A stretch of DNA of 63,431 nucleotides, the filler included, from Alphaproteobacteria bacterium (GTDB lineage Bacteria; Pseudomonadota; Alphaproteobacteria; Caedimonadales; UBA9215): the NCBI GenBank assembly GCA_024280495.1. It is 8 parts of 8 records of this genome, joined end to end, with 100 filler letters (N's around TTAATTAATTAA, not from the genome) between each part and the next. Parts side by side here need not be neighbours in the genome. Positions count along the whole stretch, not along the records: positions 23,398 to 31,401 come from JAJRPZ010000099.1; positions 31,502 to 39,045 come from JAJRPZ010000007.1; 6 more parts are not named here. One strand, written 5' to 3'. Position numbers: made by a program. Below are positions 24,401 through 33,400 of this stretch, one piece after another; within the stretch, counting starts at the first letter, position 1, and each line of letters begins with the position of its first letter.

Positions 24401-27400
24401 GGGTTACCCCGTAGAGCTTTGTGATGATATGCCAACATTAGGTACCGAAGAAGCTGCATCTATTATCTTTGGTAACTTTGAACGTGCCTATCAAGTGGTC
24501 GACCGTCAAGGCATTAATGTGCTTCGTGATCCATACTCATCAAAGCCATACATTGAATTTTATACAACAAAGCGCGTTGGGGGAGATGTTATTAATTTTG
24601 ATGCTCTCATCATGCTCAAATAGCTTATTAAAGAGGGGTTCTTCTAGAACCTTGATTAAGGTAGACTACAAAAGAGGGATGCATTTCCCTCTTAGACTAT
24701 AGGGAGAAGGAGCATGGCTCTTAGAAAAATCGAGATGTTAGGTGATGAACCCTTGGAAATTTCCTACGTGAAATCTTATTTGCGTATCGAACATGACAAG
24801 GATGACGGCCTTATTGAAGGGTTTATGGCAGCGGCAAGGTCTTCTATTGAAGCCTATACCTCGAGGGCATTGATCCCTCAGAAATGGGAATTGACTTTAA
24901 ATGCGGGTTTTGCCGTTGCAAGAAGTGATCGTACTTATTTGAGTGGGGATAAATCCAGGGGGACTAAAGGTATAGAACTGCCTCGGTCGCCTTTTATGGA
25001 AATGGTGGGAGATCCTATTTTGGAAAGTGATTATGGGCAAAAAAATCTGACGGATTATCGCGTTGATACCTCTGGACGGACTGCGAAAATTCATTTTGGA
25101 CCCAGCGCGCAGGCTATGCTAAATGGAACAGGTAAAATTATTATTCAATTCATAGCAGGGTATAGCGCAAAAAATCTGCCAGATGGATTAAAGCAAGCAA
25201 TACTCATGATCATAGCACAATTATATGAGAATCGTGTTCCCTCAAATGATAATCCAGGCTTGGTTGGTGAATTTAGTGAGAATGTTTCGTTACTTTTACG
25301 ACCTTATCAGGTTAAACGTCTGGCTTAATCATTATAGTCATTCCAAAAAGGTCCCAAATGTCGTCAATCACTCCCGCGCCTATAAGTTATAGGCGTTGGT
25401 CCCTCGCTCCTAGACTTGGACCTTTTTGAAGCGACTATAGATTTTGGTCTGTCGTCATCTCAATGACTCCCATAAATATGGGCGAGGGTATGGAAAAAAG
25501 AAGGGGATAAGAATGGGGCTAAAAAATAAAATAAATTTTTCAGAATTGAATGATCGTGTCGCCATGGCCAGTATTCACTATGTTGATGATGGATATGGGG
25601 GATTGAAACGTGACTTTTCTGAGGAAAAAAGCTTTTGGGCAGCCGTGACTTTTGTGTCTGCTCGGGACGTTATATCAAAATCTATTAAGGGAATAGATGC
25701 TCAAAAAGGGGCATTAAGAAAATCTATATACCAATTGGTTGTGCGCCAGGAAACAGAGGTAATATCAGAATCCCAACTTTCTTGGAAAGGACGGGTTTTA
25801 AAACCGTTAAATGCCATGGTGCCTTGTGATAAGAGGCAGGGCTACAGTCATTTTTATGCCGTTGAGATCAAAGGGGAGACCTGAAATGAAAGGGACTTTA
25901 AAACATCAAGATATTTTTAAAATAATTCAAAAAGGCTTTGAAGCCGACGCTGTTTTACAGGGGGTGCCTCTTGTGACTTATGAGGATCCAAGTTTTAAAG
26001 GAGCTCTTGTTTTATTTGAAGCACAGAAAATTTCAAATGATCTGTTTTACCTAAAGCTTGACGTGAAAAGTTTATATATGGGGAAACTCGAAAAAATTTC
26101 TATACAACAAAGTATACAGTCACTGTTAGTAGAAAATTTTTTTGAGATGAAAAATTATGAATTGGGATTTAAAGAGATCTTGGATAAATCAAAAGAAATT
26201 CTTTGTTATAAGGTAAAGATTTTTCAAAAAGGGAATGAGTTATTATGAATTTATTAAAAGAAAGATCTTCGGCTCGCCGTGTCAATTTATTTCAAAATCA
26301 TAGTGAAGACTTTGGTCCAGACTTTGATAATGATAATTTACAAACAGTGCTAGGGGAGAAATTTGTGAGTGATTTCGAACAAGAAGAGTTATTAAGTGAA
26401 ATTTTAGGGCAGCAACTCAGACGTTTGCATGGAGGCGTTGAAAATCATCACAGGCTTAAACCACGGTGGCTTTATGACTTTTAAGATGAGAATATTTAAA
26501 AAATGTTTTAAAGAAGTTTTTAATATTTGGGGGAACTATGGAAACAGTTTTAGAAATTAAGGGAATAGGGTTTCCAGCATTTTCTTGCCGTGATGTAAAG
26601 CAAACCCTTGTACCCATCGCAACGGGTGAGATGTGTCGGACTGTCAATGGTGAATTGCGCCATATTGGCTCTCAAAATCATAAGAAATTTAAAACAACTT
26701 TGCGCTGTCATGATCAGGCTTTGCCAGGGATGCAGCAGTCTTGGGTGGGGGCCCCTTTGACCGTTCATTGTGTGTCAATACTATTTGAGCAATTCGAAAG
26801 TGATGAGTTAGTAAAACTCTCGAGAGCCCCCGTGCCAGGATCCGTTTCAGTGATGAATTACCTTGGGCATAAAGTCTCTTTCGAAATAGAAGGAGATTGC
26901 ATTCTTTCTCATGAAAGTCCTCAAGGAATTTTACGTATAAGCTATCGCCCTATCCTTGAAATGCGACTTATATCTTTCGAGATGCAAGAGCAAGAGTGGG
27001 GCGATGGTGCTTCTTGGCAAATGTTATTGGAAGAAATTTAATTTTTCTTACGGACCTTTATTTCATACCAGGCAATAAGGGCAGTTGAAAGTATGATAAT
27101 ACCAGCACCAGAAAACGTCCAGATGGTGGGGATTTCTGCATAAAGAAAATACCCAAAGAATCCAGCAAAAATAAGTTCCGTATAACGATAAGGCGCAAGG
27201 GAAGAAACATCCGTCGCGGCGAAGGCTTTGAGCAAAAAGAAAAGAATGAGGTTGCCGCCAGCACCAAGGAGCACAAGATAAAATAATTCATCCATGGTGG
27301 GCATTACAAAAACTGGATAGGCAAAAAATGAGGCGAAAATAGCCGTTCCAAGGGCGATATAAAATAGCATGGAAAGATTAGATTCTTTGCTGACATATTT

Positions 27401-30400: not shown

Positions 30401-33400
30401 CGTTCCTATGCTGGGAACCCTTCGGGGGGGAGCTCAAACTAATGTTGGTATTAAGTCAGTGAATTTTTGGGTCAGCCGTGGATTATCTAACACGGCACCA
30501 GCACTGGAGGGAGATCATCGTTATTCTGTGGTTGGGGAGGGGGAAGATATATTTAAATCCTCTCTGGCTCAGCAAATACAACAAGGTGTTTTTAAAATTT
30601 CCCTTCAAGGGCACGATTATGAATCCAGGGAATATAGTGTTCTGGACCCTTTTAATCGACGTATTCAAATGAGCTTTATAGCAGTGGACTAAATATAAAA
30701 ATATGCTTTTTAAAAAGGGAGATGGTTATGAAGGAATTAGAAATAGATGTAGTGGCACGTACAATTTTTGGAGAAGCACGGGGAGAGTATTACAGACCAG
30801 ACGGGGGAATTTCAGCACTCATAAGCGTTGCAAATGTGATGCGTAATCGTTTGGAGGGCTCTAAACGATTCGGAAAAACTTATCAAGAAGTTTGTCGCAA
30901 ACCCTATCAATTTTCCTGTTGGAACCCACGAGATCCTAATGCTCATTTAGTTGCGCGTATACAAAAGGGAGAAGATAGGCTTTTTGATATTTGCTTGAAA
31001 GTTGCAGAAAATGTTATCCATGGGGCTTGGCCAGATATCACTTCTGGTGCCAACCATTATCATGCCTCTTGGATGAATACTTATCCTGCTTGGGCTATGG
31101 GAGTTGTTCCCTCCTATAGGTGCGGTCAACATATCTTTTATAAATTATAAAAGGAGAGCATTATGAGTTTGACAATTATGGGGGTGGCAAGCGCCCTTGC
31201 AGATCTTGTGCCTGGTGTTGCAAGGTGGTTTACCAATGACCCAAAGGACATTGATCGTACCAAGACCATTGCACAAAAAGTTATTAATATTGCAAAAAAA
31301 ATTACGGGTAAAAATGATGCTGCCAAAGCACTGTCCGTTTTAGAGGCCAATCCAAAAGCATTGATGGAATTTCAAAAAGCTATTTTATCAATGGAACGAG
31401 ANNNNNNNNNNNNNNNNNNNNNNNNNNNNNNNNNNNNNNNNNNNNTTAATTAATTAANNNNNNNNNNNNNNNNNNNNNNNNNNNNNNNNNNNNNNNNNNN
31501 NCGAAGTATGATAAAACACAACCGATCTTGTTCGGTATGTCCACGAGGTTCTAGTTTTTTTCTCCCTTGTTTTTAAGTGCAAGGAAGATATTTTTTTATG
31601 GAGTTATTATGATGCGTTCTCTTTTTTCCTCTTTTTTCCTCTTTTTTTCTCTCTTTTTTAGTGCGCCTCTTTTTGCTGTGGTCGCTGATAACTCCCTTAA
31701 GATTGCCATTGTAAATTTTGAGAAAGTCATTCAAGAGTCAAAAATTAATGTTTATATTCAAAAAAATGTTGATGAGAAACGCGAAGAATTACAGGTTTAT
31801 GTAGAAAAATTTGAAGTTAAATTGCGTGAAAAAGAATCTCATTTAAAGGATTTGCAAAACAAAAATGATCCTTCTGTATCAAAGGCTAAAACGGACTTTG
31901 AAAACAAAGTGACCGATGTTCAAAATTCTATTAAAGCACGTTCTAAAATTTTAAGTAGGGTGTTTGGAGAAGCACGTAATAGAGTTACCACCAAAGTAAT
32001 GGATATTATTAAAGATATTGCAGAAAAACAAGGTTATACTCTTTTCTTACCCTCAAGTGTGGTTATTTATCAAAATGGTCATGATATCACCGAAAAAGTT
32101 GCAATACGCTTGGATAAAGAAATGCCAACCATTGAAATTGATTTTTCAGAATTATCTGACTTAGCTACTAAAAAGGATGCACTTAATGACTGATTCACGT
32201 TTTTTTAAATGCTGTGATCCCTTGTCTGCACAGGAATTATTAGAGCACCTTGCATCTGAGCCAGGGGCTGAAAATTTAAAAATGAATTCCCATGCTGCCG
32301 TTAAAATTTCAGATGTAAATACATTAAATGAAGCTGGTCCTCACGATGTGACTTTTTTTCATAATAAAAAATATTTGGATGACTTAAAAAATACAAGGGC
32401 AGGGGCCGTTATTGTATCGCCTGAATTTGTGGAATATGTACCAAAAGAATCCGTTGCTATTCAGTCTAACGAACCCTACAGAACTTATGCAAGGACTGCG
32501 CATTATCTGTATCCTCACGTGGAAAATGATTTTGAAGCCTGTCATAAGAGCCTTCATCCCGAGGCTAAAATTGCCCATGATGTTGTTATTGAGCCAGGTG
32601 TGGTTATTAATGCTTGTGCAGAAATTGCATCAGGATGTGCCATCGGTGCAAATACCGTTATCGGTCGTGGTGTTAAGATTGGAAAAAATACACGCATTGG
32701 CGCTAATGTAACCCTTTCTCATTGCTTAATTGGAGCAAATGTCACCATTCTTCCTGGGGCCAGAATTGGGCAAGCTGGGTTTGGGTTTCATATGGATGAA
32801 AAAGGACATATTAGTGTCCCACAATTGGGACGCGTCATTATTTCTGATGCCGTTGAAATTGGTTCTAATACGACCATTGATCGGGGAACCCTTGAGGATA
32901 CTTTTATCGGTCATGGTACCCGCATTGATAATTTAGTTCAAATTGCCCACGGCGTTAAATTGGGTGAATATTGTGTTATTGTGTCACAGGTCGGTATTTC
33001 TGGCAGCACGCATTTCGGTGATTATGTTATTGCTGCGGGACAAGCTGGTTTTGTCGGTCATATCACCGTTGGAAATGGTGCACAAGTTGCGGCAAAAGCA
33101 GGCGTGATGCGGAGTGTTGACCCAGGGCAAAAAATGGGTGGGCATCCTGCTGTTCCTATACGACAATGGCATAAGCAAGGCATTGCCCTTGGAAAATTAG
33201 CGTCTTCTGGGGTTTCTGGACGCTCTGCCCGTAAGGGGTCAAAATAAAATTATTAAACAAGTTAATTAGGCACTATAAATGACCACTGAAATTAAAGATC
33301 AAACGGTTCTCTCTGTTACAGATATTATGAACCTTATACCCCATCGTTATCCAATGTTAGGGGTAGATCGCATTCAGGATATTATTCTGGGTGAATCCTG

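What a model noticed while it worked through the whole genome (the two positions that open the first line are those of the whole stretch)
25444..31399. Order-wide conserved gene set in place of the 'missing' GTA tail genes
Downstream of the gene-transfer-agent head genes lies a set without RcGTA tail families: g0267, an antisense EamA transporter, g0269 (574 aa, with a CBM5/12-like module), g0270, a SleB-type hydrolase and a phrog_1544 protein. g0269 and g0270 are kept across all four families of the order. The published 'missing tail' is therefore more likely a replaced, conserved module than simple decay.
Evidence so far: Head genes. The order of genes matches G005. g0269 relatives are in 22 of 23 genomes, counting G000; the alignment is in call 113. 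A profile hits CBM5/12 modules at E 8e-7. The EamA gene lies beside g0269 in 15 of 19 loci, with g0267 also found in 8 of them. g0270 relatives follow g0269 in 13 of 13 loci. George et al. 2022 report tail genes missing or undetected.
(Added by a program. Inside this text positions count along the whole contig: they may not be those of the stretch shown here. "Call 12" and the like, gene names such as g00115 and contig names such as C1 are that model's own, and its searches are not shown. The text may have been shortened before it was handed on; [...] marks where a part breaks off. The agent that wrote the report below was given it as the finding of a first reader that could run no searches.)

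Follow-up and report, generated by a model that had tools for sequence, protein, structure and literature searches.

The report
Hidden tail tip of endosymbiont GTAs
The "unknown" genes after the gene-transfer-agent head genes encode a phage tail tip (a ring protein and a central hub), so these symbiont particles probably carry a very short tail instead of none.

Summary
Window 23398-31401 is one 8-kb contig that carries capsid, adaptor, stopper, a terminator-like gene, a 79-aa mini-ORF, g0267, an antisense EamA gene, g0269, g0270, a SleB-type hydrolase and a phrog_1544 protein. g0269 relatives occur in 22 of 23 genomes of the order, and the gene order recurs in 10 of 10 fetched loci.

Both families also sit directly after the tape measure gene in two siphovirus prophages. 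No tube gene was found in the order, and a tape measure only in one genome, 500 kb from its cluster.

The module reaches well beyond the order: 35 of 301 sampled class genomes have it, and none of those has RcGTA g12.

Verdict: this is a conserved, non-RcGTA tail-tip module on a GTA head. It probably gives a stub-tailed particle. g0270 remains unexplained.

The parts
23424..24623 (+). Major capsid protein (HK97/RcGTA g5 type). Portal and prohead protease lie at the start of another contig of the same genome (C4).
   Evidence: PF05065 E 8e-78, phrog_10 E 2e-69. Portal and protease were found on C4 by tblastn.
24714..25328 (+). Head-tail adaptor (g6-like, Ad1)
   Evidence: PF05135 E 7e-13, phrog_442 E 3.5e-20.
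25444..25884 (+). Stopper / head completion protein (g7-like, Hc1). The true start is probably further downstream.
   Evidence: PF05521 E 6e-6 and phrog_25 E 1.4e-4. The orthologue in L029 gives PF05521 E 1e-10.
25811..26248 (+). Tail completion / terminator-like protein (g8 position). The likely start is the ATG at 25886, just after the stopper's stop codon.
   Evidence: The window copy matches no family. The positional orthologue in G002 matches PF11367 (Tail_completion_gp17) at E 6e-10. In the order, 5 of 23 genomes score above the cut-off and 7 of 23 reach E<=0.01.
26245..26484 (+). Conserved mini-ORF (79 aa here, 46-76 aa in relatives) that ends in ...P-x-W-x(1-4). It lies directly upstream of g0267 and its role is unknown.
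   Evidence: Seen at this position in 12 of the 16 loci examined. An HMM built from 11 copies finds further copies in loci left out of the model (E 7e-11 to 7e-5).
26538..27041 (+). g0267: distal tail protein (Dit-like ring protein with tail-tube fold)
27038..28054 (-). EamA-family transporter, antisense. A cellular gene lodged between the Dit and hub genes; not a particle part.
   Evidence: PF00892 E 8e-29. It is 54-70% identical across the order, far above the phage-like genes. It is absent from this position in G018, G221, G180 and the G093 prophages.
28083..29807 (+). g0269: baseplate hub (gp27 / Mu gp44 / VgrG fold, residues 1 to about 490) plus a C-terminal beta domain
29097..29240 (+). 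CBM5/12-like carbohydrate-binding module inserted in the hub (residues about 339-386)
   Evidence: Pfam E 0.037 in G000. Profile E 7e-11 against PDB chitin-binding modules. The module is missing from 2 of 11 aligned orthologues, so it behaves as an insertion.
29817..30692 (+). g0270: conserved protein of unknown fold that always follows the hub gene
   Evidence: A positional orthologue of 291-319 aa is present in 9 of 10 order loci, and in others outside the order. No Pfam, PHROG, NCBIfam or Atlas match.
30722..31150 (+). SleB-type cell wall hydrolase (Hydrolase_2)
   Evidence: PF07486 E 1.5e-15, phrog_938 endolysin E 1.8e-16.
31163..31401 (+). N-terminal part of the phrog_1544 protein, cut by the contig end. 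Full-length relatives are about 180 aa with two hydrophobic spans in the C-terminal half.
   Evidence: phrog_1544 E 8e-9.

Best explanation
The genes after the GTA head and neck genes encode a phage tail-tip complex. g0267 is the distal tail protein (Dit): a ring with tail-tube fold that would sit under the neck. g0269 is the central baseplate hub: a gp27 / Mu gp44-like protein that would close the channel as a trimer. It carries a CBM5/12 sugar-binding module that probably contacts a glycan on the target surface. g0270 is most likely a further tip or receptor-binding part, but this rests on position alone.

Most relatives also have a small protein of about 185 aa with a CBM5/12-like stretch after g0270. 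This genome has lost it.

The SleB-type hydrolase and the membrane protein of phrog_1544 form a wall-opening pair. They would act either in release of the particle (endolysin plus a holin-like partner) or in entry.

No tube, chaperone or tape measure gene is detectable. The particle is therefore predicted to be a GTA-type capsid whose neck (adaptor, stopper, terminator-like protein) docks almost directly on the Dit-hub tip, giving a stub tail in place of the 'missing' tail.

Shown: the hub fold, the tube/Dit fold, the conserved gene order, the class-wide spread, and the canonical position of both families after the tape measure in true prophages.

Inferred: that these proteins assemble on this head, that the tail is short, and the roles of g0270, the CBM module, the hydrolase and the membrane protein.

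For: Context. In genome G093, two prophage copies carry a tape measure (phrog_8462, E 4e-26 and 3e-35) followed directly by a g0267 homologue and then a g0269 homologue. One copy is fully annotated from terminase to spanin.

Conservation. g0269 is in 22 of 23 order genomes. The same order of capsid, adaptor, stopper, g0267, EamA, g0269, g0270, hydrolase and phrog_1544 occurs, with at most two of these genes missed per locus, in five loci from other families of the class. A reduced version occurs in a 628-kb genome.

Neck. The positional orthologue of the 25811-26248 ORF matches PF11367.

No tube or tape measure. PF06199 was found in 0 of 23 genomes. PF04630 and PF16461 were found in 0 of 5, and PF10145 in 1 of 5, where it lies 500 kb from the cluster. 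tblastn with the prophage tube and tape measure against G000 found nothing.
Against: No experiment or read data link these proteins to the capsid. The link rests on gene order alone.

Absence of a tube was tested with three Pfam tube families, one tape measure family and two prophage queries only. A divergent tube gene elsewhere is not excluded, and G000 is 89% complete in 99 contigs.

In G007 the head genes lie 160 kb from the tail-tip genes and the capsid gene is split into two ORFs. The two sets are therefore not always linked or intact together.

An antisense EamA gene splits the cluster, and promoter-like sites are no more frequent than in shuffled sequence.

g0270 has no fold or family assignment. 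George et al. saw no particles in more than 850 imaged symbiont cells.
Confidence: 0.6

Rival explanations
1. Same function, different history. g0267, g0269 and g0270 are the vertical descendants of RcGTA g12-g15 that diverged beyond sequence recognition in fast-evolving symbionts. They would not be a module acquired from another phage.
For: The only near full-length structural match of g0267 is a g12-family Dit. The module sits exactly where g12-g15 would be. The two types never co-occur in the 301 sampled genomes, which fits one lineage of genes as well as it fits replacement.
Confidence: 0.25
2. A normal-length tail exists. A divergent tube protein and a tape measure are encoded elsewhere in the genome or among unrecognised ORFs, and g0267/g0269 are simply its tip.
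For: RcGTA itself needs genes outside its main cluster (recalled, not tested here). G000 is 89% complete. Only four Pfam families and two prophage queries were tried. g0267-like tube folds are hard to detect by sequence.
Against: The tube family PF06199 was found in 0 of 23 genomes, several of them 96-100% complete and in 1-5 contigs. PF04630 and PF16461 were found in 0 of 5. A 628-kb single-contig genome keeps portal, protease, capsid, adaptor, two small ORFs, g0267, g0269 and phrog_1544 as neighbours, with no gene of tape-measure size between them.
Confidence: 0.15
3. The tail-tip genes work without the capsid, for instance as a surface adhesin or host-interaction device, or they are remnants on the way to loss.
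For: In G007 they lie 160 kb from the head genes, whose capsid gene is split. George et al. discuss repurposing of the particles for host interaction.
Against: The frames are intact in 21 of 22 matched order genomes, with one TGA in G019, and across about 26 families, including genomes of 0.6-1 Mb where unused genes are soon lost. Adjacency to the neck genes is the rule: 9 of 10 order loci, and 9 of the 12 loci fetched from outside the order carry a capsid gene beside the hub gene. A hub and a Dit have no known role apart from a tail or tube machine.
Confidence: 0.1

Closest known systems
RcGTA tail tip (g12 distal tail protein Rcc01695, g13 hub, g14 peptidase, g15 megatron; PDB 6TBA/6TEB/6TEH) and the related roseophage R4C baseplate (8GTC)
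   Same: Same place in the cluster, after the head and neck genes. g0267's only near full-length structural match is the R4C distal tail protein, a g12-family member. A wall-degrading enzyme gene lies in the same stretch.
   Different: No sequence or profile similarity. The hub here is one chain of 574-680 aa with a CBM5/12 insert. RcGTA has a 290-aa hub plus a 1300-aa megatron (that layout is recalled from Bardy et al. 2020, which I did not read here). The enzyme is a Hydrolase_2 type. RcGTA's g14 is recalled as a peptidase. No tube, chaperone or tape measure genes were found.
Single-chain baseplate hubs: T4 gp27, Mu gp44, pyocin R2 hub, PVC/AFP/AlgoCIS spike-hub proteins, T6SS VgrG
   Different: Sequence identity is 6-13%, and no Pfam hub family is matched. 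There are no sheath or baseplate wedge genes nearby. A CBM5/12 module is inserted. The context is a siphovirus/GTA-type neck, not a contractile tail.
Siphovirus prophages of genome G093 (loci L067, L148/L149)
   Same: They carry sequence homologues of both g0267 and g0269, in that order, and one hub also has a CBM5/12 module.
   Different: They are complete long-tailed phages with a major tail protein (phrog_807), a tape measure of 611-649 aa, head genes of other PHROG families (phrog_29 capsid) and their own endolysin and spanin. They have no EamA, g0270 or phrog_1544 gene.
Siphophage Dit-Tal tips (T5 pb9/pb3, 80alpha, SPP1, TP901-1)
   Different: The scores are lower than for Mu/PVC-type hubs. 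Those tips sit at the end of a long tube, which is not found here.

Membership tests
gp27 / Mu gp44 / VgrG-type baseplate hub | Multi-domain hub fold, including the tube-like domains that continue the tail channel | tested here: met
gp27 / Mu gp44 / VgrG-type baseplate hub | Match to a curated sequence family of hubs | tested here: not met
   Pfam, PHROGs and NCBIfam give no hub family for g0269. A profile search of PDB sequences matches only the CBM module.
gp27 / Mu gp44 / VgrG-type baseplate hub | Gene placed after the tape measure and Dit genes of a tail operon | tested here: met
   True for the g0269 homologues in 2 of 2 G093 prophage copies. In the window itself no tape measure gene is present.
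gp27 / Mu gp44 / VgrG-type baseplate hub | Trimer that closes the tail channel | not tested
   No multimer model was made.
Distal tail protein (Dit) | Tail-tube-like beta-sandwich fold able to form a hexameric ring | tested here: met
Distal tail protein (Dit) | Gene between the tape measure and hub genes | tested here: met
   g0267 homologues directly follow the tape measure gene in 2 of 2 G093 prophages. In GTA-type loci g0267 lies just upstream of the hub gene, with EamA in between in most.
RcGTA g12 family (DUF2460, PF09343) | Match to PF09343 or profile similarity to it | tested here: not met
   0 of 23 order genomes score above the cut-off. hhalign of g0267 against 26 DUF2460 proteins gives probability 1.4-1.9%.
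RcGTA-type gene transfer agent | Head and neck genes g3-g8 (portal, protease, capsid, adaptor, stopper, terminator) | tested here: met
   Portal and protease are on contig C4. PF05065, PF05135 and PF05521 are in the window. PF11367 matches positional orthologues, 5 of 23 above the cut-off. The window's own terminator-like ORF matches nothing. The large terminase was not looked for.
RcGTA-type gene transfer agent | Tail tube g9, and distal tail genes g12-g15 of the RcGTA families | tested here: not met
   PF06199 in 0 of 23. PF09343 in 0 of 23 above the cut-off. The g13 alignment against g0269 or g0270 gives probability 0.1%. The g14 and g15 families were not searched.
RcGTA-type gene transfer agent | Packages and transfers random host DNA | not testable with these tools
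   No functional data. No RNA run was listed.
CBM5/12 carbohydrate-binding module | Sequence match to PF02839 or to solved CBM5/12 modules | tested here: met
   Below the cut-off in G000 (E 0.037). The family profile gives E 7e-11 to 3wx7 and 7.5e-7 to 1ed7. Relatives give E 4e-12 and 1.3e-4. Sugar binding was not tested.
Tape measure protein (for the mini-ORF 26245-26484) | Sequence relation to a tape measure C-terminus | tested here: not met
   The mini-ORF HMM does not retrieve the G093 tape measures at E<=10 among 34,511 segments. The only shared feature is a C-terminal P-x-W motif next to the Dit gene.
Holin (for phrog_1544) | Small membrane protein with transmembrane spans, encoded next to an endolysin gene | tested here: inconclusive
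   Hydropathy shows one or two spans at about residues 100-136, followed by a further conserved hydrophobic stretch read by eye, and the gene abuts the hydrolase gene. No holin family is matched.

The most novel reading that the evidence does not exclude
A natural tube-less tail. In a wide set of small-genome Alphaproteobacteria, the GTA neck (adaptor, stopper, terminator) docks directly onto a Dit ring and a single-chain hub taken from another siphovirus lineage. The tube, chaperones and tape measure have been discarded. The conserved 46-79-aa ORF ending in P-x-W just before the Dit gene would be all that is left of the tape measure, setting a tail length of about zero rings. The CBM5/12 modules would aim this stub at a glycan on sister cells or on the eukaryotic host. 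That would explain why symbionts with genomes as small as 0.6 Mb keep the set.
Probability: 0.3. Interest if true: 0.8.

Novelty: new variant of a known kind. Interest (0 to 1): 0.62.

Why it matters
George et al. 2022 left open whether endosymbiont GTAs are tail-less heads, decaying relics or particles with unrecognised tails. That question decides whether the particles can deliver anything at all.

Two of the unknown genes are a hub and a Dit. They are kept in 22 of 23 genomes of this order and in about 26 families of the class. This makes the question testable, because there are now named proteins to look for in particles, to tag, to model as a neck-Dit-hub stack and to delete.

It also defines a second, mutually exclusive tail-tip type among alphaproteobacterial GTA-like clusters, which present GTA gene catalogues (g1-g15) do not count. 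If the stub-tail reading holds, it would show how a long non-contractile tail can be reduced to its tip.

Tried and rejected
Word-based homologue search for g0269 found only itself.

The search for related loci could not use alignments A1 or A2 because they have no conserved stretch, so no named genome contigs or viral contigs were obtained.

tblastn of g0269, the G093 Dit homologue and the G093 hub homologue against 50,697 phage records gave no match.

The ESM Atlas gave no usable hit for g0270.

Profile-profile comparisons of g0267, g0269 and g0270 with RcGTA g12 and g13 alignments, and with each other, all gave probability <=1.9%.

A PDB sequence search with the g0267 profile found nothing relevant.

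Complex prediction for g0269 with g0270 gave no verdict (score 0.00, partner fold uncertain). It says nothing about binding.

The idea that the mini-ORF is a tape measure vestige found no HMM support and is kept only as a speculative reading.

No listed sequencing run is on record as RNA.

The promoter and terminator scan was no different from shuffled sequence.

The phrog_1544 protein matches no Pfam holin family.

Public names for members of both families are only 'hypothetical protein'.

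
Full report
WHAT IS THERE

The window is a chain of contigs joined by N spacers. The finding lies on an 8,004-base contig, window 23398-31401 (C28 of G000).

Reading the + strand, it carries:
- a major capsid gene (PF05065, E 8e-78)
- an adaptor (PF05135)
- a stopper / head completion gene (PF05521, E 6e-6)
- an ORF at 25811-26248 with no family match
- a 79-aa mini-ORF (26245-26484)
- g0267 (167 aa)
- an antisense EamA transporter
- g0269 (574 aa)
- g0270 (291 aa)
- a Hydrolase_2/SleB-type enzyme
- the start of a phrog_1544 protein, cut by the contig end

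Portal and prohead protease genes lie at the start of contig C4. The head cluster is therefore split only by the assembly.

CHECK OF THE OBSERVATION

g0269 relatives are in 22 of 23 genomes of the order, in all four families. The miss is a genome that is 67% complete.

In ten 20-kb loci from ten genomes of the order:
- the capsid, adaptor and hydrolase genes were each found in 9 of 10
- g0267 and g0269 were found in 10 of 10
- EamA was found in 9 of 10
- phrog_1544 was found in 9 of 10

An ORF of 291-319 aa follows g0269 in 9 of 10 loci. BLAST recognises only 3 of these as g0270, but they align.

The CBM5/12 match is weak in G000 (E 0.037) and firm with a family profile (E 7e-11).

Two details need correcting. 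First, the 5' end of the stated region holds neck genes of RcGTA families: the stopper, and a gene whose orthologue in G002 matches PF11367 at E 6e-10, with 5 of 23 genomes above the cut-off. Second, the set is not limited to the order.

WHAT THE PROTEINS ARE

An exhaustive HMMER search found 292 cluster representatives related to g0269. With 121 of them, AlphaFold2 gave a confident model (pLDDT 92.9, pTM 0.86).

Residues 1 to about 490 are therefore a baseplate hub. Residues about 339-386 are an inserted CBM5/12 module, which is missing from 2 of 11 aligned orthologues.

phmmer shows that 8gtc_G is the 'Distal tail protein' of roseophage R4C. It belongs with RcGTA Rcc01695 to DUF2460.

INDEPENDENT SUPPORT FROM REAL PHAGES

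In genome G093, both families occur in two prophage copies. One copy reads: terminase (phrog_15), portal, protease, decoration protein, capsid (phrog_29), head closure, major tail protein (phrog_807), tape measure (611 aa, phrog_8462 E 3e-35), g0267 homologue, g0269 homologue (770 aa), tail fibre, endolysin, spanin.

In the other copy, a 649-aa tape measure (E 4e-26) is followed by the g0267 homologue, a 531-aa ORF and a g0269 homologue with a CBM5/12 module at E 4e-12.

The two families thus occupy the Dit and hub positions of long-tailed siphoviruses. The capsid, terminase and portal of that prophage match other PHROG families (phrog_29, phrog_15, phrog_21) than the window's capsid (phrog_10).

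SPREAD

A profile of g0269 hits 35 of 301 evenly sampled genomes of the class, in about 26 families. Of the 35, 32 are at most 2.1 Mb. g0267 hits 28 of the same 301, and 27 of these are among the 35.

Five loci from other families repeat the whole order, including the lodged EamA gene. A 628-kb single-contig genome keeps portal, protease, capsid, adaptor, two small ORFs, g0267, g0269 and phrog_1544.

RcGTA g12 (PF09343) is in 52 of the same 301 genomes and in none of the 35. Within the order, 0 of 23 genomes score above the cut-off. Related genomes are not independent, so no statistical test is claimed.

WHAT IS STILL MISSING

- The RcGTA tube family PF06199 was found in 0 of 23 genomes.
- Two other tube families were found in 0 of 5 near-complete genomes.
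- The tape measure family PF10145 was found in 1 of 5, and there it lies 500 kb from the cluster.
- The prophage tube and tape measure found nothing in G000.

Between the adaptor and g0267, the loci hold only the stopper, the terminator-like gene and a mini-ORF.

The mini-ORF is a real conserved gene. An HMM built from 11 copies finds further copies at E 7e-11 to 7e-5 in loci left out of the model. It ends in P-x-W, as do both G093 tape measures. However, the HMM does not retrieve those tape measures, so a tape measure origin is only a speculation.

OTHER MEMBERS

Most relatives carry an extra ORF of about 175-205 aa between g0270 and the hydrolase gene. It has weak tail-fibre or CBM-like PHROG hits, the best at E 3.6e-6. 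In the window only 29 bases separate those two genes, and two queries for the extra ORF find nothing in G000.

The phrog_1544 protein of relatives (about 180 aa) has one or two hydrophobic spans in its C-terminal half, followed by a further conserved hydrophobic stretch, and a conserved tail. Together with the adjacent hydrolase gene it looks like a lysis or entry pair, but no holin family matches it.

EamA is 54-70% identical across the order, against 21-31% for the hub. It behaves as a cellular passenger gene.

MECHANISM PROPOSED

A GTA-type capsid and neck carry a very short tail made of a Dit ring and a hub trimer. CBM5/12 modules on the hub, and on the small extra protein in most relatives, would serve for glycan contact. 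A wall hydrolase would serve for exit or entry.

The folds, gene order and spread are shown. Assembly on this head, tail length and the individual roles are inferred. I put this reading at 0.6.

Rivals:
- Vertical divergence from g12-g15 rather than capture of a foreign module (0.25). This differs in history only.
- An undetected tube encoded elsewhere (0.15).
- Function apart from the capsid, or decay (0.1). In G007 the two gene sets lie 160 kb apart and the capsid gene is split.

COMPARISON WITH PRINT

I read parts 1-3 of 4 of the main text of George et al. 2022 (PMC9254644), and passages of its supplementary tables.

The paper reports heads without identifiable tails in Holosporaceae. [quoted passage not shown] Its Table S3 has columns g1 to g15. 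The Holosporaceae rows I saw stop at the adaptor, stopper or terminator column.

Two full-text searches found no later paper that assigns these genes: 'gene transfer agent' + endosymbionts + Holosporales and 'gene transfer agent' + tail + Holosporaceae from 2022 on. The 2025 Holosporales review cites the 2022 paper only in its reference list (passages).

Public records name members of both families 'hypothetical protein'.

The RcGTA structure paper (Bardy et al. 2020) was not read. What I say about g13 and g15 is recalled.

VERDICT

The tail tip is present, conserved and of a non-RcGTA sequence type. The tube and tape measure remain missing.

This is a new variant of a known kind: a GTA-like element with a different tail tip and apparently no tube. 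Interest is 0.62.

Noticed in passing
window 30692-30722; L031:6099-6680, L027:13510-14064 and others: Most genomes of the order have an extra ORF of about 175-205 aa between g0270 and the hydrolase gene, with weak tail-fibre or CBM5/12-like PHROG hits. G000 has only 29 bases there, and the closest relatives have shortened forms of 120-125 aa. This looks like lineage-specific loss of a likely receptor-binding part.
   Followed up: partly
window 26245-26484: A conserved 46-79-aa ORF ending in P-x-W lies directly upstream of the Dit gene in most loci. The tape measures of two prophages that carry the same Dit family end in the same short motif, but an HMM search did not link them.
   Followed up: yes
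L150 (G007:C1:1156000-1175999) and L025: In G007 the head and neck genes lie about 160 kb from the mini-ORF, g0267, EamA and g0269 genes. The capsid gene is split into two ORFs and the stopper is short, while the hub is intact. No g0270, hydrolase or phrog_1544 gene lies next to either part.
   Followed up: partly
L067, L147, L148, L149 (G093 contigs C2 and C3): Two related siphovirus-type prophages, at 58-60% G+C, carry homologues of g0267 and g0269 after their tape measure genes. One also has a C-5 DNA methylase nearby.
   Followed up: yes
window 27038-28083: The EamA gene overlaps the g0267 stop codon by 4 bases (convergent) and starts 28 bases from the g0269 start (divergent). This very tight packing of a cellular gene inside a phage-derived operon is conserved in several families of the class.
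   Followed up: partly
L151 (G014:C1:88085-91687): A 774-aa open frame with a PF10145 tape measure domain (E 3e-41) lies about 500 kb from that genome's GTA-type cluster. It may belong to a separate prophage.
   Followed up: no
window 21067-22575 (another contig, C26): A 502-aa ORF rich in Ala/Thr/Ser, whose N- and C-terminal stretches look flagellin-like to my eye. It was not tested with any tool.
   Followed up: no
window 31567-34567 (next contig, C29): ORFs that I labelled skp, lpxD, fabZ and lpxA from recall of their sequences. They are ordinary lipid A genes and are unrelated to the finding, because an N spacer separates the contigs. The labels were not tested.
   Followed up: no
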